Positions 1 through 47,399 of a stretch of DNA of 48,622 nt are shown here, piece after piece (position 1 is the stretch's first letter; every line of letters begins with the position of its first letter). The DNA comes from Shigella phage vB_Shig_1KOFFS. Location: the sequence record PV615260; one strand, written 5' to 3'. The notes beneath the pieces are model-generated. The model had not been told where the DNA came from and searched no databases. It saw only the letters and a program-made list of their open reading frames with translations. A program made the position numbers and the translations under genes.

Positions 1-18
1 CGCTGAGTATTTTGCAAA

Positions 19-92
19 ACAGCACTAATTGCTAAATAATGCCCGCCGCGAGCGGGTATTATTACCCCATCAACCAATCAGGAGCTAACGCC
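19..92 (+). promoter_or_regulatory. Conserved promoter-like cassette (copy 1): CAGCAC-N5-TGCTAAA box, 22-bp GC hairpin spacer, TATTAT
   Basis: Dyad-like box followed by hairpin gcccgccgcgagcggg, -10-like TATTAT, then RBS GGAG and ATG at 93. Confidence 0.5.
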
Positions 93-329
93 ATGAACAC
101 CAAAACCATTGCAGACACCATCAAGATTGTACCAGCAAAAGCGCAAGTAGTATCGCGCCACCTGGTTAACCTTTCTCGCCTGTGCATGGCCGACTACATG
201 GCGAACCCTTCAGAGAATGGCCTTGATGGTGTAGTCGGTGAGATTTATTTTCGCGCAGGTTACGGCCTGGAAAGTGTGGCCATGTATGAGCAAATGGCCG
301 AAGGTTTTTGCATTTACGGTGACGAATGA
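93..329 (+). CDS. hypothetical protein (78 aa)
   Basis: ORF with ATG at 93 preceded by GGAG; the ORF-track start at 39 lies inside the upstream regulatory cassette. Confidence 0.55.
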   Translation: MNTKTIADTIKIVPAKAQVVSRHLVNLSRLCMADYMANPSENGLDGVVGEIYFRAGYGLESVAMYEQMAEGFCIYGDE

Positions 330-577
330 TGATTGTCGAGACTGGTCGCGCTGCCGTATGGCAGCACGCTAAAGAAGCAGGAATAAGTGATGATATCGTG
401 AAGATCGCAAAGTATTTCGATATAAAGGATATCTCCATCGTGTTCGGCGGGAAGTTTACTTACCTCCACGAGCGCCCGGTGAAGCGCACGCGAATAGCAG
501 TGGCAACGCGAGCGGAGGCGGACGCGCTGAAGATGTTCATCCACGAGTCGAAGCAGCAGAAGAAATATTACAAGTAG
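326..577 (+). CDS. hypothetical protein (83 aa)
   Basis: ORF whose ATG overlaps the upstream stop (ATGA coupling). Confidence 0.5.
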   Translation: MMIVETGRAAVWQHAKEAGISDDIVKIAKYFDIKDISIVFGGKFTYLHERPVKRTRIAVATRAEADALKMFIHESKQQKKYYK

Positions 578-672
578 CGGGGAGGTGAAGAATGCGATAT
601 ATTGCGATCTTATTTACGGCGATTCTATTCACGATCGCAATCATTAACTATGCAATTCAATTGGGATAAATT

Positions 673-1803
673 ATGTCACCTAAAATCACAGACGAAGAAT
701 TCCTGGCCGCCCGCGAAGAAGGTAAAACATACCGCGAGATCGCGGAAGAGTTCGGCATGAACATTCGAAGCGTTGAACGTCGCGGCGTTCGCCTGGCGCG
801 ACAAGGACACCTACACGGAAACGCCCACGTTGCGAAGCATATCCCGGACGGCTTCGGCGTCAAAGGCACGTCGACGATGATTCGCGCGGACGGCTCCGAG
901 GTCGTTCGGTGGGTCAAGTCGGAAGTAGACCGCGATCGCATGGTCGCGCTTATGGAGGCAGCGCAGGCGGCTTTCTGCGAAGACCTTCCGCGAGCCGAAC
1001 CGCAACCGCTGGATGAATCGAAGTTCTACATTGAAGATCAGCTTGCCCTGTACCCGATCTTCGACTTGCATATTGGGGCAATGGCGCATAAGCATGAATG
1101 CGGCGAGAACTATGATACCAGCACGGCAGAGAAGGTTCTAAACCGCTTCTTTGATTATTCCGTTTCGGTTGCTCCGCAATCACAAAAGGCGGTTTTGTTG
1201 GTCGGCGGTGACTTCCTTCACAGTGACGGCCTGGACGCAGTAACCCCGGCAAGCGGTCACGTTCTCGATCAGGACAGCCGATACGCAAAACTTGTTTATG
1301 TTGCCATTCGTTCGCTGCGTCGCGCCGTTTCGCTACTGCTTAACAATCATGCAGAAGTTGAAGTGCAGGTGATTGAAGGCAACCACGACCAGGCCGGGAT
1401 GATCTGGCTACGCGCAGCGCTGGCGGCGTTCTATGAGAATGAACCGCGCGTTTTCGTTGATGTTAGTCCGGCGATCCTGCATCGCACCTTGTGGGGCAAA
1501 ACCATGCTGGGATATACTCATGGCCACACGATGAAAAAGCCGGAAACGCGCCTTGCTGCGATGGCTACCGACTTCCGTAAGGAGTTCGGCCAGTGCGACT
1601 ACATTTACACGCATTCCGGCCACTGGCATCACCAGACTGTAACGGAACACTCGTTAGGCATTGACGAAGTGCATGGCCAGTTGGGCGCAAAAGATGCCTA
1701 CGCAGCACGCGGCGGATGGCGATCATATCGGCAGGCTGCGGTGATTCTGTACAGCAAAGAATATGGCGAAGTAGGTCGCTTTATCTATCGCCCGAACATG
1801 TAA
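673..1803 (+). CDS. Calcineurin-like metallophosphoesterase with N-terminal helix-turn-helix domain
   Basis: Phosphoesterase motifs DLHIG, GGDFLHSDG and GNHD in order; N-terminal segment TYREIAEEFGMNIRSVERR resembles a sigma region-4 type HTH. Confidence 0.6.
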   Translation: MSPKITDEEFLAAREEGKTYREIAEEFGMNIRSVERRGVRLARQGHLHGNAHVAKHIPDGFGVKGTSTMIRADGSEVVRWVKSEVDRDRMVALMEAAQAAFCEDLPRAEPQPLDESKFYIEDQLALYPIFDLHIGAMAHKHECGENYDTSTAEKVLNRFFDYSVSVAPQSQKAVLLVGGDFLHSDGLDAVTPASGHVLDQDSRYAKLVYVAIRSLRRAVSLLLNNHAEVEVQVIEGNHDQAGMIWLRAALAAFYENEPRVFVDVSPAILHRTLWGKTMLGYTHGHTMKKPETRLAAMATDFRKEFGQCDYIYTHSGHWHHQTVTEHSLGIDEVHGQLGAKDAYAARGGWRSYRQAAVILYSKEYGEVGRFIYRPNM

Positions 1804-2330: not shown

Positions 2331-2908
2331 AAAATGTAATTATCCTCAACGGAGCGCCGGGCATCGGAAAGGACACTATCGCGGAAATCATCTCGCGGAA
2401 GTGGCAATACAAGAACCTTAGCTTCAAACAGCCGATGTTTGCCATTGCTCGTGCTGTGCTGGGATCGGCTGATTTTGCACGCTTTACTGCCCGATACCAC
2501 GACCGCAAGCACAAAGAAGTGAAATGCGATTTTTTGGGCGACCGTTCTCCGCGTGAATTCATGATTCACATTAGCGAAAATTTCGTCAAGCCGACCCTGG
2601 GCAAAAATCAGTTCGGCAAGTTGCTTTGCGATTCAGCGCTAACCTCGCCGTTTAACTGCATCGTCAGCGACGGCGGATTCGATGAGGAGGTGGAGCACGT
2701 CGCAGCGCATGAGGCGCTTAACGTGTTTGTCGTCCGCCTTCATCGTGACGGCATGACATTTGAGGGTGATAGCCGCAAGCATATTCGACGCCAGGATCTG
2801 ATTTGCGACACTTACCATGAACTCGATTTTGATATGACCACTGGCGAGCCGGAAGACGACGCGCAAAAAATCCTTGATATGGTGTCAGATGTTGCATTAA
2901 AATTATAA
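2327..2908 (+). CDS. P-loop kinase, dNMP kinase-like
   Basis: Walker A GAPGIGKDT at N-terminus; overall pattern resembles T4 gp1 dNMP kinase from memory; start overlaps upstream stop. Confidence 0.55.
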   Translation: MKNVIILNGAPGIGKDTIAEIISRKWQYKNLSFKQPMFAIARAVLGSADFARFTARYHDRKHKEVKCDFLGDRSPREFMIHISENFVKPTLGKNQFGKLLCDSALTSPFNCIVSDGGFDEEVEHVAAHEALNVFVVRLHRDGMTFEGDSRKHIRRQDLICDTYHELDFDMTTGEPEDDAQKILDMVSDVALKL

Positions 2909-2942
2909 AGTTAATGCCTTTATTATCACCACCTTAACGATT

Positions 2943-2970
2943 GGGAACCTTGATGGGTTCCCTTTTTTTT
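2943..2970 (+). terminator. Rho-independent terminator
   Basis: Stem GGGAACC / GGTTCCC with loop ttgat, followed by T8. Confidence 0.75.
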
Positions 2971-3034
2971 GTTCTTAATTTGGCCTAATGCATATATCAT
3001 CACCTTACCATTTAACTAACAGAGGTTGCATATC

Positions 3035-3250
3035 ATGCGAGAATTCATCAACGCGGCAACCAATAGCAGCGGTGGCGTTGCCCTCGCGGGATCTGCAACC
3101 GGGCAATTAATCATTGCTGCCATTGGCTTATTTTTCATGATTCTATTCGGCTCCTTCGGCGCGTGGTTGCGCTGGCGAGATTCAAAGGCGCTTCGTGAAG
3201 CGCTGGAAGTCGGGGATATCAAAACGGCGATGAAGATCAGGAGTAAATAA
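3035..3250 (+). CDS. Holin, probably pinholin
   Basis: 71-aa product with long hydrophobic N-terminal region and charged C-terminus, immediately upstream of a SAR endolysin; RBS AGAGG. Confidence 0.6.
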
Positions 3251-7205: not shown

Positions 7206-7280
7206 TTTGGTTTTCTCCGTTGCGTTTCTATGGGGTAATGCTACCCGACTTTCGCCGGGTAGTTTTAGCAATTCGTGCTA
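7206..7280 (-). promoter_or_regulatory. Conserved promoter-like cassette (copy on - strand)
   Basis: Reverse complement reads TAGCACGAATTGCTAAAAC, then hairpin tacccggcgaaagtcgggta, then CCCCATAGAAAC, RBS and ATG; the TAG is the stop of the upstream gene. Confidence 0.5.
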
Positions 7281-7970
7281 TTCTAGATAATTCGCCTGGA
7301 ACACGGCGCGGGCAAAACCTCGCGGAGTAATGGAGCGCAGCATTTTAGTCCTTTCTGACCTTCCGCCTAAAAACTTCCAGGCCCAAAAGAAATTCACGCC
7401 TTCCACTCCATCCGGCGGAGGGAGCCGTTTCGGTTCGACAAAACCGTTTCCGTGCCATATGCACGTTTTCTTCGTGTAATTGTCACAGTTGGGCATTTTT
7501 GGATGCCACACAGGTTCGTTTGGAGAAACATAGCCGCCGAAGTCGCGCGGGTGAAAATAGAAGTCAGGCTTTCGCCATAGTGACGACAATTTTCCAACCG
7601 GGTTTTCGACCATCCAGGGGCAACCATACTTATTGCCTAATTGCTCGACCATCTTCGCATCCCCTGCTGCGGATAATACGTCATTATCTTCCCTTACGTG
7701 CTTGATTCCGCTATGCGCTAACAGCGTGCATGACGGGAAGGCAAAAATGAAGTCGGGATCTGGAATGCCGAGAATCGATCGCTTCACGTCAAAATCCTTG
7801 TCGATCCAAATGTTAACATACTGGATATTGGGGTGAACCATTCTAATGCTGTATTCTCCGTGGTCGCCGGAGTCGGCATTGAAACAATACACCTTGCATC
7901 CCTTGATGGCCCACGGCAGGCCCATGATGCCGGAGCCGTCGAACATGCAGTAAATAACCTTGTCTTTCAT
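7278..7970 (-). CDS. Short C5-cytosine methyltransferase-like protein (230 aa)
   Basis: Motif I-like FDGSGIMG, motif IV-like FPSC and motif VI-like MVENPVG in canonical order; too short to hold a normal target recognition domain. Confidence 0.45.
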   Translation of the reverse strand: MKDKVIYCMFDGSGIMGLPWAIKGCKVYCFNADSGDHGEYSIRMVHPNIQYVNIWIDKDFDVKRSILGIPDPDFIFAFPSCTLLAHSGIKHVREDNDVLSAAGDAKMVEQLGNKYGCPWMVENPVGKLSSLWRKPDFYFHPRDFGGYVSPNEPVWHPKMPNCDNYTKKTCIWHGNGFVEPKRLPPPDGVEGVNFFWAWKFLGGRSERTKMLRSITPRGFARAVFQANYLE

Positions 7971-8193: not shown

Positions 8194-8265
8194 TTGTGTA
8201 GCTCCTTCGTTTGTTGGTGTGGGACAGTATGCCACTATCCAGCCATGTTGTTTTAGCAAAACGTG

Positions 8266-8643
8266 CTATGCCGGAACGCAGGTCGCGTAATCTTGGCTGA
8301 TGTAGATCGTGCGCTGAACGCGAGGTTCGAGATCTCCGAGTTCCTGGATGGTAACATCGTTGCTTCCTACCCGGCACGGAACCGATCCAAAGATAAACTC
8401 GCTAGTCTGCTTGTCGTTGATTTGCCATACATTACCGCCTTCCTTTTTGACAACCAGGAAAGGCGCACTGTCTGCACTGAACTCTTCCGGGCCACGACCG
8501 TAGTAATGCGTGATCGCAGCTTTGGCCGCAGCGCTGAAGGCATCGGTAACGTCATTGGTCGCCTTGTCGCGGATGGCCTTGATACGTTCTTCAGGCGATC
8601 CGATGATGTAGGAAAAGCTGTTCGAAATGGTAACTGTTCGCAT
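8266..8643 (-). CDS. hypothetical protein (125 aa)
   Basis: ORF with RBS GAGGT before ATG at 8643. Confidence 0.5.
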   Translation of the reverse strand: MRTVTISNSFSYIIGSPEERIKAIRDKATNDVTDAFSAAAKAAITHYYGRGPEEFSADSAPFLVVKKEGGNVWQINDKQTSEFIFGSVPCRVGSNDVTIQELGDLEPRVQRTIYISQDYATCVPA

Positions 8644-9073: not shown

Positions 9074-9148
9074 GGTTAATCTCCTGACTGGTTTCGATGG
9101 GGTAACTATACCAGGCCTTTCGGCCCGGCGTTTAGCAATTCGTGCTTA
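9074..9148 (-). promoter_or_regulatory. Conserved promoter-like cassette (copy on - strand)
   Basis: Reverse complement reads TAAGCACGAATTGCTAAACG, hairpin ccgggccgaaaggcctgg, extended -10-like TGGTATAGT, then CCCCATCGAAAC. Confidence 0.5.
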
Positions 9149-9427: not shown

Positions 9428-9785
9428 AGCTTTAGACCCTTTGGCTCAATTCGTTTCGTTGAAGTCATCATAGCAAAGTCGATCGGGTGGCTTTTGACAA
9501 AAAATGCTATTCCTGCGATTGCTGATTATTCCACCGATTCGGAATAGTGGAATAGATGGTGATTGCACCTGATTCCCTGGTGATTAGTTTTGACGAATCA
9601 TGATTGCTTTTGATTGTTTCATTTTGCGCAATGACTTGGTGGAGTGTTTCATGATTTGCAACGAATTGCATAAATGTATGCACCATGCACGCAATTTGCC
9701 GATCGAAGCTGGCAGAACTGGAGTTGTGTTTCACCAACATTTACGCCGTGTGGGAGTGTGGGGGAGGGATAATCTTACCTAAAAA

Positions 9786-9897: not shown

Positions 9898-10014
9898 GGG
9901 AGGTTATGGATTCCTCTTGCGCAAGCCATAATTTTTAGATGTTCCGCCGCGAAAAAATGTATATATGGATATATGGGGGATGACAGCAAATCTTCCCAAA
10001 CACGCGCAAATCCT

Positions 10015-10043
10015 TTGACACCAAGGCTTGCGGCCAGTATTAT
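10015..10043 (+). promoter_or_regulatory. Sigma70 consensus-like promoter for the rightward early operon
   Basis: TTGACA at 10015-10020, 17-bp spacer, TATTAT at 10038-10043, about 50 bp upstream of ATG 10091. Confidence 0.6.
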
Positions 10044-10090: not shown

Positions 10091-10669
10091 ATGCAATACA
10101 AAGGCTATGAGTTCGAAGAAGTCGATGTGTCCGAGTGGATGCAGTACGACGCAGAAAAGCAGGCCGCGTACCATGAATGGCTGCAATCCATCACGTTTGG
10201 TGACACCACCAGGCCAGCAGGGCGGAGCCAGGAAGCCACTAAACCTGAAGGCACATTCACTGGCAACCGCTCTTCCGAGATCCGGCGCATGTTCCTGGAT
10301 GGCGGGCGGCGTATCCAGATGACGGCGGAGGAGTTCGCGGAGAAGTTCGGCGTTCATCCGGTCGACAACCATTTCCGCAGGCCGTTGCTGAAACTCCTGG
10401 AGCCGGGCGAGGTGTTGCGCGTGAGCCTGGGGGCGGGGTTAATCTCCGTCTTTACCGAGTTCGACGCAATGACTAGCTCAAACCTGGAGGTTGAGGCATA
10501 CAGGCGGCAGGGCGCTACCTCTGAGCGGGAAAGGATTAAGGGTTTAGTGGCCGCTCTTGCCGTAGACTTTGCCGGGGATGCTCTGGCCGGGATTTACAAG
10601 GCGAACTTGTTCGCGGCTATCGATCTTGGGTTGACCGCCAGCGATATCAGCCAGCACGGCAAGCAATAG
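10091..10669 (+). CDS. hypothetical early protein (192 aa)
   Basis: ATG at 10091 preceded by GGGGGA; ORF-track extension to 10028 would overlap the promoter. Confidence 0.55.
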   Translation: MQYKGYEFEEVDVSEWMQYDAEKQAAYHEWLQSITFGDTTRPAGRSQEATKPEGTFTGNRSSEIRRMFLDGGRRIQMTAEEFAEKFGVHPVDNHFRRPLLKLLEPGEVLRVSLGAGLISVFTEFDAMTSSNLEVEAYRRQGATSERERIKGLVAALAVDFAGDALAGIYKANLFAAIDLGLTASDISQHGKQ

Positions 10670-10741
10670 CACTTTTTGTTAAAACGCGATCGGGGTGGCT
10701 TGCTATAGTAACCCCATCGAAACGAACAACGGAGCACCACA
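10667..10741 (+). promoter_or_regulatory. Conserved promoter-like cassette
   Basis: TAGCACTTTTTGTTAAAAC, hairpin GGGGTggcttgctatagtaACCCC containing TGcTATAGT, then CCCCATCGAAAC and RBS GGAG. Confidence 0.55.
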
Positions 10742-11236
10742 ATGAAATCTCGCGAATACCTAAACACCCTTAATGGCCTTATCTACTGGCTGGAAGATGA
10801 CGCAGTGATGATGCGCAAGCGCGAAGGCAATATTGTGAAGAAGTCGAATATGGCAGCGGCGATCTTCTTTGCGATGGTCGGCAACGATACACTTCTGCTT
10901 GTCGAGGCGGAGCCGGAGCAAAAGAGCATGACCATGAACGAATTCTCTAACTTCCTGGCTGGCATCGACAAGAGCACCACGACTGCAACCGCACAGACGG
11001 CCATTCAGGGCGGAGCCACCCACATTGCCATCGACGGTAACGGCGACGTCTTCGCATTCAAGATGCGCCCGCGCCCCTGCCTGCCGGATGACGACGACGC
11101 GAATGACTACCTGGGCGAATGGCTTCGCGGGTCTGAGCAGTACGGCCACATTGCGCGAACAGTCTGCTTCCTTGGCAACACTGGCCGCGAGCACCGCAAC
11201 TGGCTGGAACTCTGCTTCCAGATCCCACAGCAATAG
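10742..11236 (+). CDS. hypothetical early protein (164 aa)
   Basis: ORF downstream of cassette; contains an acidic DDDDAND stretch. Confidence 0.55.
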   Translation: MKSREYLNTLNGLIYWLEDDAVMMRKREGNIVKKSNMAAAIFFAMVGNDTLLLVEAEPEQKSMTMNEFSNFLAGIDKSTTTATAQTAIQGGATHIAIDGNGDVFAFKMRPRPCLPDDDDANDYLGEWLRGSEQYGHIARTVCFLGNTGREHRNWLELCFQIPQQ

Positions 11237-11304
11237 CACTTTTTGCTAAAACACGATCGGGGTAACGCGGTATTATTACCCCATCGAAACAGAGGAGCAA
11301 AAAC
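11234..11304 (+). promoter_or_regulatory. Conserved promoter-like cassette
   Basis: TAGCACTTTTTGCTAAAAC, hairpin GGGGTAAcgcggtatTATTACCCC, CCCCATCGAAAC, RBS GAGGAG. Confidence 0.55.
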
Positions 11305-11527: not shown

Positions 11528-11848
11528 ATGATTCACGAAGTTAAATCCGGCGAGCAAGTAGTGGCCACCATCACGCAGCGCCACGTTGTAGCCTTCCAGA
11601 TTAACATCCCTGGCACGTTCGATATGCAGTCGCTTGACGTGCCAGTTTGGGCCAACACGGTTGCCATTGATGCCGACGGCTCGATTTGGGCCTATGAGTC
11701 GACCGTTGAAAATGTTCGCCTGCTGAGTTACTCGCCTGATTCATGGGTGGATAAGGGGCCGGGCGGAAACAAAATGGTTCAGGTGGGCGAAATGGCTCGT
11801 TTCCCTGATTGGGCAAAATCGAAGATTGACCTTCGCGGCCTGAAATAG
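11528..11848 (+). CDS. hypothetical early protein (106 aa)
   Basis: ATG at 11528 preceded by GGAG. Confidence 0.5.
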   Translation: MIHEVKSGEQVVATITQRHVVAFQINIPGTFDMQSLDVPVWANTVAIDADGSIWAYESTVENVRLLSYSPDSWVDKGPGGNKMVQVGEMARFPDWAKSKIDLRGLK

Positions 11849-11934
11849 CACGCATTGCTAAACGCCAGGTCAGTGGATCGGGCATAATTATCACGAAGTC
11901 GATTAACGACCAAATTATGCAAGGAGACAGGATA
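11845..11934 (+). promoter_or_regulatory. Conserved promoter-like cassette
   Basis: TAGCACGCATTGCTAAAC, 22 bp, CATAAT, then RBS AGGAG before ATG 11935. Confidence 0.5.
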
Positions 11935-12386: not shown

Positions 12387-12459
12387 ATAGCACTTTTTGC
12401 TAAACGCCCGGTCAGGAGATCGGGCATAATGGCCATACACCAAACAACGGAGATTAACC
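12387..12459 (+). promoter_or_regulatory. Conserved promoter-like cassette
   Basis: TAGCACTTTTTGCTAAAC directly after stop TGA, 22 bp, CATAAT, RBS GGAG. Confidence 0.5.
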
Positions 12460-13330: not shown

Positions 13331-13512
13331 AAGTAAGCAAAAAGAAACTCGCGCTGTATTGGGCCTTCTTCTTGGTTGGCCTGGCGCTGCATGATAATGT
13401 AGACTGGCATCCGGTCGGCATGATTTGCATCATCATCGGGTTATGCCGACTGTCAGAGATTGACGGGTTCCGCCGTGGATATAGGGCAGCGTTCAGCGGC
13501 GAAAAAAAATAG
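13327..13512 (+). CDS. small membrane protein (61 aa)
   Basis: Two hydrophobic segments (LALYWAFFLVGLAL and VGMICIIIGL). Confidence 0.45.
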   Translation: MKVSKKKLALYWAFFLVGLALHDNVDWHPVGMICIIIGLCRLSEIDGFRRGYRAAFSGEKK

Positions 13513-13591
13513 CACTTTTTGTTAAAACTGCCGTAACGTCATTTGATAAAGTGGCGTTACTGAAGTGAACAATCCAATCAGGAGCAACGCA
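13510..13591 (+). promoter_or_regulatory. Conserved promoter-like cassette (variant hairpin)
   Basis: TAGCACTTTTTGTTAAAAC, hairpin CGTAACG..CGTTAC, TGATAAAGT, RBS AGGAG. Confidence 0.45.
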
Positions 13592-13810: not shown

Positions 13811-14298
13811 TGAACACCGTCAAACTTATGGTTGTCAACGTGGCCCGCGAACGTGAACGCCACCTTATCGGCTGCGTATTCGATGCCGTCGAGGTTCGCG
13901 ATCCGCTCGGAATGGCTCGCGTAATCAATGGCGGATACCTTAACGAATTCATCATCAACCCGCTTGATACTGACGAAGACTTGACCATCCGTGTTGGTGG
14001 CGAGCCGGAAAACGCGCTTTTCCACCTGCGGAAAGTATCGAAGGCGTCGCAGCGCAAGTTGCTGGTTCGCGCACTGAAGCGCATTGCGAAGGAGCGCGGT
14101 TACACCGACGCATACATCCGCAAGTTCGGCACGTTCGCTGGCGTCGGAGATTGGGCGCGATCCTGGGCCGACTTATACTTCGATAAATCCGGCAAATTCT
14201 GTTCCGCGCATACGGACTGGCTGCATGGAACCGAACACGATCCAGTTAGCGGCCACGAGTGGTACGAATTCATTGAGGATGGATTAGACGCCCTTTGA
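13810..14298 (+). CDS. hypothetical early protein (162 aa)
   Basis: ORF whose start overlaps upstream stop. Confidence 0.55.
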   Translation: MNTVKLMVVNVARERERHLIGCVFDAVEVRDPLGMARVINGGYLNEFIINPLDTDEDLTIRVGGEPENALFHLRKVSKASQRKLLVRALKRIAKERGYTDAYIRKFGTFAGVGDWARSWADLYFDKSGKFCSAHTDWLHGTEHDPVSGHEWYEFIEDGLDAL

Positions 14299-14373
14299 TA
14301 GCACGAATTGCTAAAACGAACGTCCGGGGATGGTGCATACTATCCCCACACCAACGAACAAAGGAACTCACAC
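14299..14373 (+). promoter_or_regulatory. Conserved promoter-like cassette
   Basis: TAGCACGAATTGCTAAAAC, hairpin GGGGAtggtgcatactATCCCC, RBS AAGGAA. Confidence 0.5.
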
Positions 14374-15233: not shown

Positions 15234-15269
15234 GATGGCGTTTGTGTTCCAAAGTGGATAGCCAGCAAA

Positions 15270-15343
15270 TAGCACGAATTGCTAAAACCGATCAGGGGTA
15301 AGCTGGTATAGTTACCCCATCGAAACGAAACGGAGTTACAGCA
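15270..15343 (+). promoter_or_regulatory. Conserved promoter-like cassette
   Basis: TAGCACGAATTGCTAAAAC, hairpin GGGGTAAgctggtatagTTACCCC with TGgTATAGT, CCCCATCGAAAC, RBS GGAG. Confidence 0.55.
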
Positions 15344-41244: not shown

Positions 41245-41303
41245 GATAAAGTTTCCTTTTCCTGATTGGTAATGCGCACTATATCACAAGTGCGCACCAG
41301 TGT

Positions 41304-42350
41304 TTAGCTATTTGTGCCGTATACGTCCGGGAACATGTATTTCACAAACTGCGGAGTAGGCAAAACGACTTCCGCCGCGTTTGACTCATATGATGGCCAT
41401 GAATCGTGCTTCACGCATTCCGCATACTGATGAATCACGCTTTGATACTGCTTGCGACCGATCTCGATCTGCTTGCTGGTCAGGGTGAACGCCAGCGGAG
41501 CAAACGGTGATTTTTTCTCCTGCGTTAGCAGTCTGACAACTACCGGGCGTTTTTCGTTGTAGGTCTTCACGAACAGATCGCGCTGCAATGCCATCTTGAG
41601 ATAGTAGCCCAAATTGAAGGCGAGTCGCCCGAAATCGTCCGGCTTGGAAGATTGCGTGGTTTTGTAGTCGGTAATCACCACGACCTCGAAAACCTCATCC
41701 GGGTTGAACCCCCACTCCTTGATGAGTTCGGGATCGGAAACAACGTCAACATGATCGAGTCGAACCTTAACCTTGACGCCGAAGATCTCACCGAAGATTG
41801 ACAATTCACGCTGTGCGGTAGGCGATTCGATACATGCGGCGTGTCGCGGGTTAGCCAGCATCACGCTGCGCATTTGAACAACGGCATCGAAATCAACATC
41901 CTTAACCAGCTTGCGCCCGGAGTTCATCGCGGCGCTTTCGTCGCACAGTTCAATCGCCCACCAAACATTTACGTCAATCCCGGCGCGATATGCCATTTCC
42001 AGAAGTTCCGGGTAATCCTTGTTGGACGTCCCAATCAGGCCACACGCTTTCAGCTTCGCAGACAATGCCGACTTCGACGTAATCAGATCTTTAACCTCGC
42101 CAGGAGAAGTCGCCCGCAGATACTCGCCATTAAATTTTGCCGTCTCAAGCATACAGGTATGCGAACAGGTTCCGAACGCCAGCGCGGCGGTTTCCTCACG
42201 CACCTTGTATTTCCAGTGCGCCGGGGATGTTGCGTAAATCTCGCCGAGGCTTGAGCCGCTAACGTACTCCGCGCACCAGGAATCAGGATCGTGATATTGC
42301 TCGTTAGTCAATTCACTGCTTGTGTATGCCCTGAAAATTGCTTCAGCCAT
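41304..42350 (-). CDS. Recombination exonuclease (PD-(D/E)xK family)
   Basis: 348-aa ORF upstream of erf and ssb; D..E.K-like segment VVITDYKTTQ; position in recombination module. Confidence 0.55.
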   Translation of the reverse strand: MAEAIFRAYTSSELTNEQYHDPDSWCAEYVSGSSLGEIYATSPAHWKYKVREETAALAFGTCSHTCMLETAKFNGEYLRATSPGEVKDLITSKSALSAKLKACGLIGTSNKDYPELLEMAYRAGIDVNVWWAIELCDESAAMNSGRKLVKDVDFDAVVQMRSVMLANPRHAACIESPTAQRELSIFGEIFGVKVKVRLDHVDVVSDPELIKEWGFNPDEVFEVVVITDYKTTQSSKPDDFGRLAFNLGYYLKMALQRDLFVKTYNEKRPVVVRLLTQEKKSPFAPLAFTLTSKQIEIGRKQYQSVIHQYAECVKHDSWPSYESNAAEVVLPTPQFVKYMFPDVYGTNS

Positions 42351-42383
42351 TGATATTGCTCCATTTGTGGTTTCGTTGCGTTA

Positions 42384-42425
42384 AGTATACGCATGACGAT
42401 TCCCGGCGCAAGTCAAAAAGTGCTA
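42384..42425 (-). promoter_or_regulatory. Promoter-like cassette variant upstream of the exonuclease operon
   Basis: On the - strand: TAGCACTTTTTGACT, 21-bp spacer, TATACT. Confidence 0.4.
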
Positions 42426-42468
42426 TCTGCGGTTGGTCAAAAAATGAGCGAAATTTACGTAAGATTTA

Positions 42469-43805: not shown

Positions 43806-43883
43806 GTCGTTACCTCCAAATAAAAAACGCCTACACGAGAATGATAACCCGGCAGGCGTTTAGTGTTTAGACAAATTGTGCTA
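43806..43883 (-). promoter_or_regulatory. Conserved promoter-like cassette (- strand) upstream of primase
   Basis: Reverse complement reads TAGCACAATTTGTCTAAAC, then hairpin and TATCAT-like element, then RBS. Confidence 0.45.
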
Positions 43884-44282
43884 TCGGACTACGCGGAGCA
43901 TTTCCCGGCGGTCGCATCGGCGCGTAACTGGCTTGCCGTTGCTGTCAAACCTTAAATCTGGTCGGCAGAATGAGGCGCGGAAACCTTTGCAATTGTTCCG
44001 GCGGTAGCTCTTGTGTACGAGATAAGCGCCATCGGCTGAGATCATGCCTCGCTTGCGCCACTGCTGAACGACCTGGATGCTAACCCCCAACTCTTTTGCC
44101 GTTCCAGCGATGCCACCGAAGGCATCAATAACAAGCTCCATCCGCGCAGTCAACCCGGCGCGAACCTCATCCTTCAGTACGTAGTAACCAGTCGGGCGTT
44201 TGCGCTTCTTCTTGTCCTTTCCGCGAGATGTTCCATTGTTGCCGTTCAAAGTTCGCTTGTCTACCTTTGCCATTTGTTCCAT
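43881..44282 (-). CDS. HTH DNA-binding protein (Cro/YdaS-like), candidate transcription regulator
   Basis: Segment GTAKELGVSIQVVQQWRKRGMIS resembles Cro/YdaS-type helix-turn-helix; basic N-terminus. Confidence 0.55.
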   Translation of the reverse strand: MEQMAKVDKRTLNGNNGTSRGKDKKKRKRPTGYYVLKDEVRAGLTARMELVIDAFGGIAGTAKELGVSIQVVQQWRKRGMISADGAYLVHKSYRRNNCKGFRASFCRPDLRFDSNGKPVTRRCDRREMLRVVR

Positions 44283-44295
44283 AATTTAGCCCTCA

Positions 44296-44373
44296 TAGCA
44301 CTTTTTGTTAAACATGATAAAATATGCTATGTATTATACACGCAACCATGCTAATGACAAATTAGGATTGCAC
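44296..44373 (+). promoter_or_regulatory. Conserved promoter-like cassette
   Basis: TAGCACTTTTTGTTAAAC followed about 22 bp later by TATTAT, with an extended -10-like TGATAAAAT nearer the box. Confidence 0.45.
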
Positions 44374-44886
44374 ATGGCAAGCACAGAAGAAGACGTAGCA
44401 TATTTTAAGCGACTATTTCGTTATGAAGGCGGAACACTGATTCGCAAAGTTACAACCAGTAGTCGTGCATTCGCTGGCGACTCCGTAGGGTGCGAGAACA
44501 ACGCTGGGTATTTACAGGTAAGCGTAAAAAGCAAACCCCTATACGTTCACCGAATCATTTGGGAAATGCATAATGGGCCGATCCCAGAAGGAATGGAGAT
44601 AGATCATATCAATCAGGTCAGAACAGATAACAGAATCGAAAACCTGCGACTGGTAAGCCACAAAGGAAACCTTAAAAACCAATCAATGAACAGTGGCAAT
44701 ACTAGCGGGCAATCTGGCGTAAGCTGGTTTAAGCGAGGCGGGAAGTGGAGGGCAACAATAAAGGTTGACAGAAGGCAAATACACATTGGTTACTTCGCGT
44801 CGTTTGATTCGGCAGTTGCCGCACGAAAAGCAGCAGAAAAACAATACGGTTTTCATGATAACCACGGAGCAGAGAAAAAGAAATGA
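44374..44886 (+). CDS. HNH homing endonuclease with AP2-type DNA-binding domain
   Basis: HNH motif EIDHINQVRTDNRIENLRLVSHKGN and C-terminal AP2-like SGVSWFKRGGKWRATIKVDRRQIHIGYF. Confidence 0.75.
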   Translation: MASTEEDVAYFKRLFRYEGGTLIRKVTTSSRAFAGDSVGCENNAGYLQVSVKSKPLYVHRIIWEMHNGPIPEGMEIDHINQVRTDNRIENLRLVSHKGNLKNQSMNSGNTSGQSGVSWFKRGGKWRATIKVDRRQIHIGYFASFDSAVAARKAAEKQYGFHDNHGAEKKK

Positions 44887-46922
44887 GCTTATCGATTGAG
44901 CAACAAATAGATCTATACGCAGACAAAATACCGGCAATCCAAAAGAGATTTACCGTTGGAAATATCGTTCCGTATCCATATCAGGCTGTGGCTTATATTG
45001 AGACCGCCAAAAGAATAGCAAACTACACCGCACCGTTTTACATTAAGGCTTCGGTTTCCGCCGGGAAAACCATCATGATCGCCATGCTCGCGGCGCAGTG
45101 CAAAGCAATGAACTTACCCATGATGGTTCTAGCTCGCCAGGCTGAGATCGTGAAGCAGGATTCCGAGGAGATCAGTAACCTCGATGTTCCCAACTCCGTT
45201 TATTGCGCCGGGTTAGGAACGAAGGCCGCATACTTCCCGATTGTCGTCGGATCTGAAGGGACGGTGGTTAATGGCCTGTTTAAAATGCTGGGCGACTACG
45301 TGCCTTCAGTTCTGGCCATTGATGAATGCCACCAGGTTGACTGGCAAGATTTGGCGGAAGCGATCGCCAACAATGAATCGTTCGAGTACATGAGCCGACC
45401 GAAGGATAAGCCGTATCGCGTGAACGGGGAACTGGTCGATGCCGACCACCCCTACGACGAAAAATTCGACGACGTGGAATTCGGCGGCGGGCGCACTCAA
45501 TACACCATCGTAATCATTGAGTTAATGCGCCGTTGCCTTCAGAAGACTGGGCGCGAGCTTCGCATTGTTGGCTATACGGGTTCGGAGTTTCGCGGAGTCA
45601 TTCCGATCTTACAGGAAGACAAGAGCCAGCCGGGTTTCTGGCGCGAGCAGATCACCGACATTAACACAAACTATCTTGTCGAGTTCGGATCGGTTGTTCC
45701 CACCATTTTCGGCGATACCGAGGCGGATGGGTTGGGGTATGATCTTTCAGAATTCCACGGCTCCAGTCAGGACGGTACGCAGGATTTTAGCGCGGAAGAC
45801 TTGCGCAAGATGGAGAAGAAAATCCATGAATCCGGCGAAATGACGAAGCTGATTATGCAAAAGGTCGTTGAGCGTGCGAAAACCCGAAACGGTGTTCTGA
45901 TAACTTGCGCTGGACAGCGGCATTGCAAGGAGGCGGCGAGCTATCTACCGCCGGACGCAACATACGCGATCATCACCGAGAAGACCAACTCAAAGAAACG
46001 CGGCGAAATTTTGGATAAGGCGAATCGCGGGGAGATTAAATACATCTTCCAGGTGATGGCCCTAACCACTGGCGTTAACGTTCCGTTTTGGGATTTTTCG
46101 GTGATATTGCGCAAGATTGGATCGCTTACGTTGCTTATTCAGCTTTTGGGGCGCGGTATGCGACTTCTGAAGGACTGGCAAAAACAGCCACCTTACTCGT
46201 GGGTGAAAGAAGATCACCTTGTCTGGGATTTTGCCGGAACAATGGATGACCTGGGCCAGTTGTATTTCGATCCGATTTTGGAGCAGGCGCAATACCAAAG
46301 ACGCAAGAGCAGCAAGAACGGCCCGAAAATTTGCCCGGTATGCAAGGGCGAAAATAGCGAGTACGCCCGCCGATGCATTCATAAGGACAGTAACGGCAAT
46401 CGGTGCGAATACTTCTGGATCTCGCAGCGCTGCGAAGACCAGAAAGACCCACGAACAGGGAAGATTAAAGTAAAAGGGTGTTACGCTGAAAACGATATTG
46501 TTGCTCGCCAGTGCAGATGCTGCGGTGTTCAGCTTAAAGACCCAAATGACAATCTCACCGGGAAGCACTATACGCAAAATGACTGGTATGATGTTGTCGG
46601 GTTCGATATCGGCTTGACTCGCAATCAGTCCGGGATAATCTTCAATTACGTGTTACTGAACCATGACGGCGAGCGATTCACCGCAAGGGAAAAGTTCTTC
46701 CCGGAATCAGAGAATCAGATTTGCGGCAAGTTGTGGCGGCAAAAGGCAGTCTTCCAGCACGTTAGCGACGCGGTAATGCGCGGCAAGTTGGGTGGCATGA
46801 AAAACGCCCGCAAGATCCTTGAGTATGCGGAATACTTCCGCGCTCCGAAGCGTGTAACGCATCGCATCAACGGCAAGAAGGAGGACATTATTTCCCGCAA
46901 AGACTTTGGAGGCGAGGAGTGA
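44883..46922 (+). CDS. SF2 DEAD/DEAH-box helicase
   Basis: Walker A VSAGKT and DEAH-type motif DECHQV; C-terminal Cys clusters (CPVCKG, CRCC). Confidence 0.8.
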   Translation: MSLSIEQQIDLYADKIPAIQKRFTVGNIVPYPYQAVAYIETAKRIANYTAPFYIKASVSAGKTIMIAMLAAQCKAMNLPMMVLARQAEIVKQDSEEISNLDVPNSVYCAGLGTKAAYFPIVVGSEGTVVNGLFKMLGDYVPSVLAIDECHQVDWQDLAEAIANNESFEYMSRPKDKPYRVNGELVDADHPYDEKFDDVEFGGGRTQYTIVIIELMRRCLQKTGRELRIVGYTGSEFRGVIPILQEDKSQPGFWREQITDINTNYLVEFGSVVPTIFGDTEADGLGYDLSEFHGSSQDGTQDFSAEDLRKMEKKIHESGEMTKLIMQKVVERAKTRNGVLITCAGQRHCKEAASYLPPDATYAIITEKTNSKKRGEILDKANRGEIKYIFQVMALTTGVNVPFWDFSVILRKIGSLTLLIQLLGRGMRLLKDWQKQPPYSWVKEDHLVWDFAGTMDDLGQLYFDPILEQAQYQRRKSSKNGPKICPVCKGENSEYARRCIHKDSNGNRCEYFWISQRCEDQKDPRTGKIKVKGCYAENDIVARQCRCCGVQLKDPNDNLTGKHYTQNDWYDVVGFDIGLTRNQSGIIFNYVLLNHDGERFTAREKFFPESENQICGKLWRQKAVFQHVSDAVMRGKLGGMKNARKILEYAEYFRAPKRVTHRINGKKEDIISRKDFGGEE

Positions 46923-47326
46923 TTACAGATAAAGGGGATTACCTCGAATATTACGGCGGGCCTGTAAAGGCTTGCCCGCTTGAGAAAATCGACCAGATGA
47001 ACAGCGTTTCGTGGCTGCGGCATGAATATCCTGATTATCTGTTTTGGCATACGGTTAACGAAGGGAGCAAGCACAAAGCGAGCGCGGTTATCGATCATCA
47101 AATGGGGTTGCTGAAGGGTGTTAGCGACATTCTGATCCTGATTGGGTTCGGTGGCAAATACCCGTTCGCAGCCATTGAGCTAAAGCGCCAGGGTAAGGCG
47201 CAGGCGTCGCCAGTGAGCAAGGAGCAAAGGGAATTCCTTGCTGCCGTCCGGCGTCGCGGCGGATTCGCCGCCGTGGCCTATGGCTTCGAGCAATTCAAGA
47301 TCGCTTTCTGCGATGCCATAAAATAG
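46919..47326 (+). CDS. VRR-NUC domain nuclease
   Basis: PD-(D/E)xK-like segments GVSDILIL and AIELK; GTG start after RBS GAGGAG overlapping helicase stop. Confidence 0.55.
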   Translation: MITDKGDYLEYYGGPVKACPLEKIDQMNSVSWLRHEYPDYLFWHTVNEGSKHKASAVIDHQMGLLKGVSDILILIGFGGKYPFAAIELKRQGKAQASPVSKEQREFLAAVRRRGGFAAVAYGFEQFKIAFCDAIK

Positions 47327-47399
47327 CACTTTTTGTTAAAACCGCCCGGCGAAAGCCGGGTATCATTTCCACATCGAAACAAAGAACGGAGTGTTGAAA
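47324..47399 (+). promoter_or_regulatory. Conserved promoter-like cassette
   Basis: TAGCACTTTTTGTTAAAAC, hairpin CCCGGCgaaaGCCGGG, TATCAT, CATCGAAAC, RBS GGAG. Confidence 0.5.

What the first reader, a model, noticed from the sequence alone, without database searches (positions are those of the whole stretch)
1..47399. Dispersed copies of the same cassette on both strands mark most operon starts
Further copies sit at 19-92 (+), 7206-7280 (-), 9074-9148 (-), 43806-43883 (-), 44296-44373 (+) and 47324-47399 (+), with a weaker variant at 42384-42425 (-). The one operon lacking it starts from a canonical TTGACA-17-TATTAT promoter at 10015-10043. That suggests a two-tier programme: one host-type immediate-early promoter, then a regulon of cassette promoters.
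Basis: partly seen in the sequence, partly recalled or inferred. Interest (0 to 1): 0.6.

Follow-up and report, generated by a model that had tools for sequence, protein, structure and literature searches.

The report
Phage early promoters carrying host marboxes
The repeated cassette in this T1-like Klebsiella phage is a compact promoter unit whose conserved 21-base box is a near-perfect binding site for the host's MarA/SoxS/Rob/RamA stress activators, which suggests an answer to what this known phage repeat is for.

Summary
All seven listed copies sit exactly where stated, and the window holds 17 copies in all.

- **What the window is.** It is a Webervirus, a T1-like Klebsiella phage of the family Drexlerviridae.
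- **What is already known.** The 21-nt box aaATAGCACnnnTTGnTAAAA was described in phages TLS and T1. Its function is listed there as an open question.
- **Promoter anatomy.** In 89% of 253 cassettes the box lies exactly 22 bp (TTG hexamer to -10 hexamer) upstream of an extended -10 sigma-70 promoter. The signals are T-17, G-14, TAtaaT and a C-1/A+1 start. An A/C-rich leader, GGAG and the start codon follow.
- **What the box matches.** It fits the published marbox consensus AYnGCACnnWnnRYYAAAYn at 13 of 14 specified positions. It points forward, is centred near -41, and lies 18 bp from the -10 hexamer, exactly as at E. coli micF. That is the class II MarA/SoxS/Rob/RamA promoter layout.
- **Who reads it.** The phage encodes no MarA-like protein. 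Published T1 reporters show cassette promoters firing in uninfected E. coli.
- **The hairpins.** Covarying hairpins sit between box and start site. They probably act on read-through transcripts from the gene upstream.
- **The two-tier model.** It is only partly supported.

The parts
19..92 (+). Cassette 1. Marbox 19-38 (ACAGCACTAATTGCTAAATA, 14/14), spacer hairpin, -10 TATTAT 57-62, leader, ATG 93.
7206..7281 (-). Cassette 2. Marbox 7281-7262 (13/14), GAAA-loop hairpin in the spacer, -10 TAGCAT 7243-7238, ATG 7205. The stop codon of the upstream gene is the TAG inside the marbox.
8195..8269 (-). Marbox 8269-8250 (13/14), -10 CATACT 8231-8226, ATG 8194.
9074..9148 (-). Cassette 4. Marbox 9148-9129 (TAAGCAC..., 12/14), GAAA-loop hairpin, TGG-TATAGT 9110-9105, ATG 9073.
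9428..9510 (-). Cassette 5, a variant (GCAT for GCAC, 12/14). Marbox 9510-9491, -10 TATGAT 9472-9467, ATG 9427. It is the first promoter of the leftward early array and has no hairpin.
10666..10741 (+). Cassette 6. Marbox 10666-10685 (13/14). An inverted repeat brackets TGC-TATAGT 10704-10709. ATG 10742.
11233..11304 (+). Cassette 7. Marbox 11233-11252 (13/14), -10 TATTAT 11271-11276, ATG 11305.
11845..11934 (+). Cassette 8. Marbox 11845-11864 (14/14), -10 CATAAT 11883-11888, probable ATG 11935.
12387..12459 (+). Cassette 9. Marbox 12387-12406 (14/14), spacer hairpin with a G.T wobble, -10 CATAAT 12425-12430, ATG 12460.
13509..13591 (+). Cassette 10. Marbox 13509-13528 (13/14). A 12-bp inverted repeat has TGA-TAAAGT 13547-13552 in its loop. 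ATG 13592.
14298..14373 (+). Cassette 11. Marbox 14298-14317 (13/14), -10 CATACT 14336-14341, ATG 14374.
15269..15343 (+). Cassette 12. Marbox 15269-15288 (13/14), TGG-TATAGT 15307-15312, ATG 15344.
41245..41320 (-). Cassette 13, newly found. Marbox 41320-41301 (ACGGCACAAATAGCTAAACA, 14/14, without the phage-typical TTG), spacing 17, TGA-TATAGT 41283-41278, ATG 41244 of the erf-like gene. The stop codon of recE lies inside the marbox.
42351..42426 (-). Recognition element 1 (ATAGCAC) is kept and element 2 is replaced by TTGACT (10/14). Spacing 17, -10 TATACT 42389-42384, ATG 42350 of recE. The orthologous T1 promoter is a canonical TTGACT-16-TATAAT.
43806..43884 (-). Cassette 15. Marbox 43884-43865 (12/14), -10 TATCAT 43846-43841. 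The -10 sits in the loop of a strong terminator-like hairpin followed by T6. GTG 43805 of the primase gene. The stop codon of pir lies inside the marbox.
44295..44373 (+). Cassette 16. Marbox 44295-44314 (14/14), spacing 17, -10 TATTAT 44332-44337, no hairpin, ATG 44374 of the HNH gene followed by the helicase. Its -10 overlaps the -10 of the divergent pir promoter.
47323..47399 (+). Cassette 17. Marbox 47323-47342 (13/14), GAAA-loop hairpin, -10 TATCAT 47361-47366, ATG 47400, with dam downstream.
10015..10043 (+). Canonical sigma-70 promoter TTGACA-17-TATTAT upstream of gene 10091. It has no box.
44333..44360 (-). Second canonical sigma-70 promoter, TTGTCA-16-TATAAT, for the pir-like regulator (43881-44282). 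The marbox of cassette 16 lies in its 5' untranslated region.

Best explanation
Each cassette is a compact expression unit built on a class II marbox promoter.

**The parts, in order:**
1. A forward 20-bp marbox at about -50 to -31. Recognition element 1 is GCAC and element 2 is YTAAA. It overlaps the place where a -35 hexamer would sit.
2. An 18-bp gap.
3. An extended -10 sigma-70 element (T-17, T-15, G-14, TAtaaT) and a C-1/A+1 start.
4. An unstructured A/C-rich leader, GGAG and the start codon.

**Proposed mechanism (inferred).** A monomer of a host MarA-family activator binds the box. The candidates are Rob, MarA and SoxS, plus RamA in Klebsiella. It contacts the alpha C-terminal domain and sigma region 4 and so replaces the missing -35 contact, as in the solved micF complexes. 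The extended -10 element gives some activator-independent basal activity. The phage's whole early and middle programme would then be read by unmodified host RNA polymerase and tuned by the host stress and antibiotic-resistance regulon.

**The hairpins (inferred).** Base-paired hairpins occupy the sequence-free positions of the promoter. They lie either wholly in the gap or bracket the -10 hexamer. They most likely act in the read-through RNA of the upstream gene, as a partial terminator or a 3'-end stabiliser.

**Shown:** the anatomy, the fixed spacing, the match to the consensus and to sites bound in vivo, the identity of geometry with micF, the covariation of the hairpin, and the absence of a phage MarA-like gene.
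**Taken from the literature:** promoter activity without phage.
**Inferred:** which protein binds the box and what the hairpin does.
For: **It is a promoter.**
- 226 of 253 unique cassettes have the -10 hexamer exactly 22 bp after the TTG hexamer, which is 18 bp after the marbox.
- Conserved positions are G-14 0.87, T-17 0.62, A-11 1.0, T-7 1.0, C-1 0.79 and A+1 0.81.
- The T1 Porf65 reporter is a minimal cassette. Porf65 and Pdam work in phage-free E. coli, and Pdam also in lysate.

**The box is a marbox.**
- The consensus AYNGCACNNWNNRYYAAAYN is documented in PMC2064960 and PMC3709825.
- 13 exact core matches occur in the window against 0.04 expected.
- 212 of 253 cassettes match at least 13 of 14 specified positions. 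Positions not forced by my search pattern agree at 94-99%.
- The box's degenerate positions (-43, -42, -41, -37) fall on N, N, W and Y of the consensus.
- A weight matrix from 53 Salmonella ChIP-seq sites for MarA/SoxS/Rob/RamA has the consensus GCACAAATTGCTAAA. The 14 standard cassette boxes take 14 of its 15 best ranks among 97,216 window positions, at 16.1-18.2 bits. The best leave-one-out score of a ChIP site is 16.9, and only eight of the boxes exceed it.

**The geometry is class II.**
- The box points forward, is centred about -40.5 and overlaps the -35 region.
- This fits the published definitions (PMC12052159, PMC10268841), the RamA-micF site at about -41 (PMC8811837) and the SoxS-micF site at -41.5 (PMC9638938).
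- E. coli micF, read directly from the genome, is marbox ACAGCACTGAATGTCAAAAC, 18 bp, then TAGAAT. The spacing is the same, and AAAAC occupies the -35 place in both.
- The marbox of the mar promoter is identical to the phage box at 16 of 20 positions.

- tblastn with MarA and SoxS finds nothing in the window or in T1. The MarA query sequence was checked against PDB entry 1BL0.
- No AraC-type domain appears among 52 non-structural ORFs.

**The hairpins are real.**
- Mean folding energy of -33 to +13 is -12.3 kcal/mol against -5.8 for shuffles (p = 7e-22). The sense strand is more stable than the antisense strand.
- In one paralogue group, 96.6% of cells are paired against at most 48.6% when partners are slid. 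Six pairs show compensatory changes.
- G.T pair types outnumber A.C types 11 to 1.
- Hairpins go with a co-directional upstream reading frame: 90% against 56% have an energy below -8 (p = 6e-7).
- The two hairpin-less copies in the window are the two that head divergent units.
Against: - No binding, footprint or genetic data exist for any phage cassette. The assignment rests on sequence and geometry.
- MarA and SoxS are scarce in unstressed cells, and Rob is largely aggregated (PMC10268841). Yet T1-like phages grow well in ordinary media. Either the extended -10 element carries most of the activity or basal Rob suffices.
- The phage box is more conserved than any host marbox. Some positions the consensus leaves free are fixed: A at position 3, TT at 11-12 and C at 20. 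This hints at an extra constraint. The ChIP-derived matrix does prefer TTGC at 11-14. The TAG at positions 2-4 doubles as the stop codon of the upstream gene in nine of the 17 copies; in a tenth (41320) the stop is a TAA in recognition element 2.
- Variant 42426 has lost recognition element 2 but keeps the architecture.
- In T1, the phage proteins Pir and Orf65 and host cAMP-CRP all modulate cassette-containing fragments. Other inputs therefore exist.
Confidence: 0.6

Rival explanations
1. The cassettes are phage-specific promoters that need a phage-encoded activator or sigma-like factor. That factor is made first from the canonical promoter at 10015, or from the canonical pir promoter.
For: - There is no -35 hexamer at the sigma-70 distance. 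The TTG hexamer is 22 bp from the -10 hexamer.
- The box is as strongly conserved as promoters read by phage polymerases.
- Canonical promoters drive gene 10091 and the Cro-like regulator Pir.
- Pir activates T1 Pdam, which contains a cassette.
Against: - T1 Porf65, a minimal cassette, and Pdam are active without phage. Pir has no effect on Porf65.
- The product of gene 10091 and T1 Orf65 and ST77 are not conserved between T1 and this phage, although the box is invariant.
- The only conserved helix-turn-helix proteins are Pir and the N-terminus of a metallophosphoesterase.
- The box equals a host factor's binding site.
Confidence: 0.1
2. RNA polymerase alone. The cassettes are plain extended -10 promoters. 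The box is an upstream DNA element that needs no transcription factor, such as an UP-like or bending element or a displaced -35. Its likeness to the marbox would be coincidental or vestigial.
For: - The extended -10 signals are strong.
- Late promoters of the same phage work with a terminator plus an extended -10 element and no box.
- A/T-rich segments of the box are phased about 10 bp apart.
- The promoters are active in uninfected cells.
Against: - Invariant G and C positions (GCAC, the G of TTG) are not what the alpha C-terminal domain recognises.
- A 22-bp spacer is outside the range sigma region 4 can span.
- The chance of a 13-of-14 consensus match together with forward orientation and micF-identical spacing is very small.
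Confidence: 0.15
3. The box is an operator for a phage repressor. It would resemble the stoperators of mycobacteriophage L5, as the TLS authors speculated, or serve shut-off of early genes by Pir.
For: - The sites are asymmetric and co-oriented with transcription.
- The box lies in the 5' untranslated region of pir, both in this phage and in T1. Pir represses its own promoter.
- The half sites TAGCA-N5-TGCTA are partly palindromic.
Against: - A fixed 18-bp distance to a -10 hexamer is a promoter property, not a roadblock property.
- Pir does not affect the minimal cassette Porf65.
- The right half site varies (C or T) where a palindrome would not.
Confidence: 0.08
4. Decoy. The 17-24 consensus marboxes per genome, multiplied by replication, mainly soak up MarA, SoxS, Rob or RamA and blunt the host stress response. 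Driving transcription would be secondary.
For: - The sites score above natural host sites.
- T1 has orphan copies without a usable -10 hexamer.
Against: Nearly every copy is locked to a -10 hexamer and a gene start. All 13 exact matches in the window are. A decoy would not need that.
Confidence: 0.05

Closest known systems
The 21-nt intergenic direct repeat of T1-like phages (TLS, T1, Rtp, Rogue1), aaATAGCACnnnTTGnTAAAA (PMC11447400)
   Same: It is the same element. The consensus, the orientation with transcription and the distance of about 76 nt to start codons all agree.
   Different: It was described only as a 21-nt repeat of unknown function, with stoperator, enhancer site or UP element offered as guesses. 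This work adds the fixed link to an extended -10 element, the start-site signature, the embedded hairpins and the marbox identity.
Class II MarA/SoxS/Rob/RamA promoters, with micF of E. coli and K. pneumoniae as the archetype (PDB 7W5W-Y, 7VWY/Z, 7BEF/G)
   Same: - A forward 20-bp marbox overlaps the -35 region and is centred near -41.
- The distance from marbox to -10 hexamer is 18 bp.
- There is no recognisable -35 hexamer, and AAAAC occupies its place.
- The -10 element is of sigma-70 type.
   Different: - The phage copies are closer to consensus than host sites.
- They add an extended -10 TG motif.
- They carry a hairpin in the gap.
- They are repeated 17 times as the general early promoter of a virus.
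- Binding by the activators is untested.
Marbox of the marRAB promoter, as in the MarA-DNA crystal structure 1BL0
   Same: It is identical at 16 of 20 positions to the phage box ATAGCACTTTTTGCTAAAAC, including TTTTGCTAAA.
   Different: The mar site is a class I site. It points backward and lies upstream of a good -35 hexamer.
galP1-type promoters: a class II activator site at -41.5 combined with an extended -10 element
   Same: The logic is the same. An activator site of about 20 bp replaces the -35 contact and TGn strengthens the -10 element (background in PMC9638938; the galP1 detail is from general knowledge).
   Different: The activator there is dimeric CRP on a palindrome. Here the site is asymmetric and suited to a monomer.
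Stoperators of mycobacteriophage L5
   Same: Both are short asymmetric sites dispersed in intergenic regions and co-oriented with transcription.
   Different: Stoperators have no fixed relation to a -10 hexamer and bind the phage repressor. This phage has no candidate repressor that fits.

Membership tests
Class II Mar/Sox/Rob(RamA)-dependent promoter | A 20-bp asymmetric marbox matching AYnGCACnnWnnRYYAAAYn, with recognition elements GCAC and YAAA. | tested here: met
   - There are 13 exact core matches against 0.04 expected.
- Of the 17 copies, 13 match at least 13 of 14 positions.
- Of 253 family-wide copies, 212 match at least 13 of 14.
- The 14 standard boxes take 14 of the 15 best ranks under a weight matrix built from ChIP-seq sites.
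Class II Mar/Sox/Rob(RamA)-dependent promoter | Forward orientation: GCAC distal and AAA proximal to the -10 hexamer. | tested here: met
   All 17 copies read forward with respect to the downstream -10 hexamer and gene. The definition is taken from PMC12052159 and PMC10268841.
Class II Mar/Sox/Rob(RamA)-dependent promoter | The site overlaps the -35 region and is centred near -41, with the same marbox-to--10 distance as an established member. | tested here: met
   - The marbox spans about -50 to -31.
- The gap to the -10 hexamer is 18 bp in 14 of 17 copies and 17 bp in three.
- E. coli micF has an 18-bp gap.
- Published centres are about -41 and -41.5.
Class II Mar/Sox/Rob(RamA)-dependent promoter | A sigma-70 -10 element without a recognisable -35 hexamer. 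| tested here: met
   Positions -35 to -30 read AAAAC plus one variable base. A-11 and T-7 are invariant. Class II promoters lack a -35 hexamer (PMC10268841).
Class II Mar/Sox/Rob(RamA)-dependent promoter | [quoted passage not shown] | not testable with these tools
   This needs gel-shift, footprinting or ChIP experiments. Indirect support only: sites bound in vivo in Salmonella differ from the phage boxes by one base.
Class II Mar/Sox/Rob(RamA)-dependent promoter | Transcription is stimulated by the activator and lost when the marbox is mutated. | not testable with these tools
   This needs reporters or in vitro transcription. T1 cassette reporters are active in E. coli that contains Rob, which is compatible but not specific.
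Extended -10 sigma-70 promoter | A TGn motif at -15 to -13 directly upstream of a TATAAT-like hexamer, and a start 6-8 nt downstream. | tested here: met
   G-14 0.87, T-15 0.45, T-17 0.62, C-1 0.79 and A+1 0.81 in 135 non-redundant copies.
Canonical -35/-10 sigma-70 promoter | A TTGACA-like hexamer 16-18 bp upstream of the -10 hexamer. | tested here: not met
   The TTGYTA hexamer lies 22 bp upstream in 89% of copies and 21-23 bp in all. The cassettes are not picked up by the consensus scan, apart from weak 9-of-12 matches at copies 1, 13, 15 and 16.
Sigma-54 promoter | GG-N10-GC spacing, as in TGGCAC-N5-TTGC. | tested here: not met
   The box is TAGCAC-N3-TTGC. It is two bases short and has AG in place of GG. 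The consensus is from general knowledge.
Lrp binding site | The SELEX consensus YAGHAWATTWTDCTR. | tested here: inconclusive
   The half sites TAGCA and TGCTA fit. The invariant C at -44 violates W, and the conserved flanks are unexplained. The marbox fit is better.
Intrinsic terminator (for the embedded hairpins) | A G+C-rich stem-loop directly followed by a run of U. | tested here: inconclusive
   - Stems are G+C-rich, often with GNRA loops, and they covary.
- The tail is only the T-rich -10 hexamer, or is not U-rich at all when the hairpin brackets the -10 hexamer.
- Only 43884 (-) has a true T6 tail.
T4 middle promoter (MotA box) | A TTTGCTTTA box centred at -30, together with phage MotA and AsiA. 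| tested here: not met
   TTGCTA lies at -40 to -35, about 10 bp too far upstream. Pfam scans of 52 non-structural ORFs found no transcription-factor domains other than the Pir Cro-like HTH and the Sigma70_r4_2 hit on the ST16-like protein; MotA and AsiA were not searched for specifically. The MotA-box consensus is from general knowledge.

The most novel reading that the evidence does not exclude
A whole family of virulent enterobacterial phages, the Drexlerviridae, has wired its entire early and middle transcription to the host's Mar/Sox/Rob/RamA regulon, which governs antibiotic, oxidative and bile stress. It does so with consensus class II marboxes. Infection efficiency would then rise when these activators are on, for example with bile salts in the gut, salicylate, redox drugs, or in ramR or marR mutant clinical Klebsiella and E. 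coli. It would fall when they are absent. This would be a host-state sensor built into phage promoters, and a predictable interaction between phage and antibiotic.
Probability: 0.45. Interest if true: 0.8.

Novelty: new member of a known kind. Interest (0 to 1): 0.68.

Why it matters
[quoted passage not shown] Reading it as a class II marbox promoter gives a concrete, cheap test.

**It bears on phage therapy.** Webervirus phages are common candidates for treating Klebsiella. RamA, MarA and SoxS are the very regulators switched on in multidrug-resistant isolates and by antibiotics or bile.

If phage early promoters are driven by these regulators, three things follow:
- Host resistance genotype and drug exposure should change phage performance in a predictable direction.
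- The cassettes would be ready-made, compact, stress-responsive expression units. Each holds promoter, insulating hairpin, leader and ribosome-binding site in about 75 nt.
- They would show how tightly a terminator-like hairpin can be interleaved with a promoter.

Tried and rejected
**Other readings of the box.**
- Sigma-54: the spacing is two bases short.
- Sigma-32, sigma-28 and sigma-S look-alikes: no consistent spacing.
- CRP, FNR, Fis, IHF, DnaA, OxyR, Nac and ArcA consensus sequences, compared by eye: no fit.
- Lrp: partial fit, superseded by the marbox.
- UP element: the invariant G and C positions argue against it.
- Lambda CII repeats and the T4 MotA box: wrong positions.
- Lambda-like nut site (boxA/boxB): considered because of the GAAA loops. 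Rejected because a -10 hexamer and start signature follow, and the hairpin position is not fixed.
- N4-type hairpin promoter: no phage RNA polymerase is encoded, and the hairpins occupy two different positions.

**Phage proteins as readers of the box.**
- T1 Orf65: no homologue in the window. The two fragments it acts on also share an 11-mer, TAGGGGAATCA, so the published data do not point to the box.
- Pir: no effect on the minimal cassette. A search for a shared Pir site gave only a 6-mer, CGTAAA, at chance level.
- The N-terminal Sigma70_r4_2 hit on the 376-aa metallophosphoesterase: a single helix-turn-helix on a nuclease-like protein. Not pursued.

**Searches that found nothing.**
- Rfam: no family in the window.
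- IMG/VR scan for the box outside Drexlerviridae: multi-copy hits only in contigs of about 50 kb.
- Literature searches for transcriptomes of T1-like phages, and for any link between marboxes and phage promoters.
- The Rtp genome paper is not held.

**Tools left unused.** Large protein-homology and structure tools were not used, because no phage protein remained a credible reader of the box.

Full report
**What the window is.** The first 12 kb are 97% identical to Klebsiella phage vB_Kpn_1KM2, and hundreds of Webervirus genomes match as well. The window is nearly a whole genome of a T1-like siphophage of the family Drexlerviridae. I fetched two genomes for comparison: PWKp14 (Webervirus) and T1.

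**Checking the observation.**
- The seven listed copies align. They share ATAGCAC, TTG and a TAT motif.
- An exact scan for AGCACNNNTTG gives 18 hits. Fifteen of them have the same downstream architecture. Three lie inside ORFs and lack it.
- A variant with GCAT sits at 9510 (-).
- A copy without the TTG sits at 41320 (-).
- That makes 17 cassettes. For each I tabulated the box, the spacing, the -10 hexamer, the start codon and the folding energy.
Each span runs from the box to the base before the start codon.
- The canonical promoter at 10015-10043 is real, with 11 of 12 consensus matches.
- It is not unique. TTGTCA-16-TATAAT at 44360-44333 (-) also scores 11 of 12 and drives the homologue of T1 Pir.
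- The terminase and structural block is preceded by a terminator and then TGA-TATACT at 17277-17285, with no box.
- The tail-fibre gene is preceded by a terminator and then TGC-TATTAT at 40040-40032 (-), again with no box.
- So the cassettes mark the early and middle genes, often every 0.5-1 kb in tandem. They do not mark most operon starts in general.

**Prior knowledge.**
- The 2024 re-annotation of phage TLS describes the same 21-nt repeat, aaATAGCACnnnTTGnTAAAA. It reports 18 intergenic copies, co-oriented with transcription and about 76 nt from start codons.
- The same paper notes the repeat in T1, Rtp and Rogue1. It found only three sigma-70-like promoters in TLS. It lists the function of the repeat as an open question.
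- A 2019 T1 study built GFP reporters from at most 150 bp upstream of several genes. I mapped its primers onto T1.
  - Porf65 begins only 10 nt before the box, so it is a minimal cassette.
  - Pdam contains cassette 38955 (+).
  - Both are active in phage-free E. coli, and Pdam also in a cell-free lysate.
  - Pir has no effect on Porf65.

**Anatomy across the family.**
- I collected cassettes from the window, T1, PWKp14 and 120 IMG/VR stretches that contain the box. This gave 253 unique cassettes.
- In 226 of them (89%) the -10-like hexamer lies exactly 22 bp after the TTG hexamer.
- In 135 copies that are less than 80% identical to each other, the conserved positions are those of an extended -10 sigma-70 promoter: T-17 0.62, T-15 0.45, G-14 0.87, T-12 0.76, A-11 1.0, T-7 1.0, C-1 0.79 and A+1 0.81.
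- The place of the -35 hexamer reads AAAAC.
- I repeated the collection with anchors that leave one half of the box free. GCAC and TTG are then still 94-99% conserved. Only -43, -42, -41 and -37 are degenerate.

**What the box is.**
- I compared the box with several consensus sequences recalled from memory. These are listed under tried and rejected.
- The fit that held is the marbox/soxbox AYNGCACNNWNNRYYAAAYN. I confirmed the string in two papers.
- The phage consensus ATAGCAC(G/T)(A/T)(A/T)TTG(C/T)TAAAAC satisfies 13 of the 14 specified positions. Its four degenerate positions coincide with N, N, W and Y of the consensus.
- The published core has 13 exact matches in the window against 0.04 expected. 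All 13 have a -10 hexamer at 17-19 bp. T1 has 15 exact matches, 12 of them with a -10 hexamer.
  - Its consensus is GCACAAATTGCTAAA.
  - Of 97,216 window positions, the 14 standard cassette boxes take 14 of the 15 best ranks, at 16.1-18.2 bits.
  - Eight of the boxes score above the best leave-one-out score of any ChIP site; those scores have a maximum of 16.9 and a median of 9.9.
  - The other position among the 15 best, at 48022, is a look-alike inside the dam ORF and has no -10 hexamer.

**Geometry.**
- Published definitions place class II marboxes in forward orientation, overlapping the -35 hexamer, clustered near -41 and lacking a recognisable -35.
- K. pneumoniae RamA binds micF at about -41. 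SoxS binds micF at -41.5, where it keeps sigma region 4 off the -35 element.
- I read the E. coli micF promoter from MG1655. It is ACAGCACTGAATGTCAAAAC, then 18 bp, then TAGAAT.
- The phage cassettes have the marbox, then 18 bp, then the -10 hexamer in 14 of 17 copies, and 17 bp in the other three.
- The marbox of the mar promoter is identical to the phage box at 16 of 20 positions.
- By sequence, orientation and spacing, the cassettes meet every computable criterion of a class II Mar/Sox/Rob promoter. Binding and activation remain untested.

**Who reads the box.**
- The phage encodes no MarA-like protein. tblastn with MarA and SoxS finds nothing. The MarA query matched PDB entry 1BL0.
- Pfam scans of 52 non-structural ORFs show no AraC-type domain.
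- The protein behind the canonical promoter, and T1 Orf65 and ST77, are not conserved between T1 and this phage.
- Together with the T1 reporter data, this points to a host activator.
  - Rob is constitutive and binds with high affinity, but it is aggregated in standard growth conditions.
  - MarA and SoxS are stress-induced.
  - RamA is prominent in Klebsiella.
- Two marine relatives share the helicase at about 45% identity: Vibrio Roufvirus pYD38-A and a Skatevirus. Neither has a marbox cassette. Both carry a different repeat, TTGACGTAGAT.

**The hairpins.**
- The stretch from -33 to +13 folds far better than shuffled controls, at -12.3 against -5.8 kcal/mol (p = 7e-22). The sense strand folds better than the antisense strand.
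- There are two layouts.
  - A G+C-rich stem, often with a GNRA loop, lies wholly inside the 18-bp gap.
  - An inverted repeat has the -10 hexamer in its loop.
- Arm sequences differ between copies while pairing is kept. In one group of 16 paralogues, 96.6% of cells pair, against at most 48.6% when partners are slid. Six pairs show compensatory changes.
- G.T pair types outnumber A.C types 11 to 1.
- Hairpins go with a co-directional upstream reading frame.
- In the window, the two copies without a hairpin (9510 -, 44295 +) are the ones that head divergent units.
- I infer that the hairpin acts in read-through RNA of the upstream gene, as a partial terminator or a 3'-end stabiliser. It would be squeezed into the promoter positions that carry no sequence constraint. 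Only 43884 (-) has a true run of T after the stem.

**Verdict.**
- The idea that the cassettes form a promoter regulon is right.
- The idea that they wait for a phage protein is not supported.
- The repeat itself is already in the literature. Its reading as a class II marbox promoter is, as far as the searchable library shows, new and directly testable.
- My confidence is about 0.9 that the cassettes are promoters. It is about 0.6 that host MarA-family activators read the box.

Noticed in passing
window 44295-44373 (+) and 44360-44333 (-): The cassette for the HNH and helicase genes and the canonical promoter of the pir-like regulator are divergent. Their -10 hexamers overlap almost completely (44332-44337 and 44338-44333). 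The marbox therefore lies at about +10 to +30 of the pir transcript. T1 has the same layout. Anything bound to the box could repress pir.
   Followed up: partly
window 2874-3035: Upstream of the holin gene there is a promoter-like TTGATA-18-TAAAAT (2874-2903). A strong terminator follows (2943-2962, then T8) before the holin start. The T1 Phol fragment, which Pir activates, also carries a 10-bp-stem terminator. The layout recalls lambda PR'-tR', so late control by antitermination is conceivable.
   Followed up: partly
window 17242-17285 (+) and 40079-40032 (-): The terminase/structural block and the tail-fibre gene are each preceded by a strong terminator and then, directly, an extended -10 promoter (TGA-TATACT and TGC-TATTAT) without a marbox. 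The presence or absence of the box may be what separates early from late promoters.
   Followed up: partly
18-bp gap of the cassettes, for example window 10690-10693 and 11257-11260; family-wide set: GATC is about four times enriched in the gap between marbox and -10 hexamer: 26 of 135 copies against 6.8 +/- 2.6 in shuffles. It often arises as CGATCGGGG, where an extra C interrupts an otherwise perfect complement to the leader CCCCATCG. The phage encodes a Dam methylase.
   Followed up: partly
window 7278, 8266, 9146, 10669, 11236, 11848, 13512, 41304, 43881, 47326: In 10 of 17 cassettes the stop codon of the upstream gene lies inside the marbox, as the TAG of ATAGCAC or as a TAA. This may explain why marbox positions 2-3 are fixed as TA in the phage.
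   Followed up: partly
window 9428-10090: A 660-bp non-coding region separates the divergent early arrays. It contains a very A+T-rich repetitive stretch at about 9800-9880. It could be an origin or a packaging region. T1 has three tandem GATTAACAC repeats at the equivalent place (L002 399-428).
   Followed up: no
L002 (T1) 15084 (-), 18848 (-), 34904 (+), 118 (-): T1 carries orphan boxes antisense to late genes. One, at 18848 (-), has a good -10 hexamer (TAAGAT) at the right distance. Antisense transcription into the tail genes is possible.
   Followed up: no
L002 (T1) 4370-4400 and 36432-36445: The two T1 fragments that respond to Orf65 (Porf65 and Ppir) share the 11-mer TAGGGGAATCA. In Porf65 it forms the inverted repeat that brackets the -10 hexamer. 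Some bracket repeats may double as operators.
   Followed up: no
window 673-1803 (+): A 376-aa protein, 66% identical to T1 ST16, combines an N-terminal helix-turn-helix with a metallophosphoesterase-like body. The N-terminus passes the Pfam threshold for Sigma70_r4_2 (26.6 bits against 25.7). Records annotate the protein variously as an exonuclease or a sigma-domain protein.
   Followed up: partly
L125 and L126 (Skatevirus SEzh_1, Vibrio phage pYD38-A): Both marine relatives carry 4-6 copies of TTGACGTAGAT(T), possibly their own promoter motif. The 'Salmonella' host label of SEzh_1 looks doubtful. The isolate came from sea water and the record is marked UNVERIFIED_ORG.
   Followed up: no
window 48019-48038 (+): A high-scoring marbox look-alike (GCACATCTGGCTAAA) lies inside the dam ORF, at the NPPY motif. 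It has no -10 hexamer downstream and is probably a chance match.
   Followed up: yes
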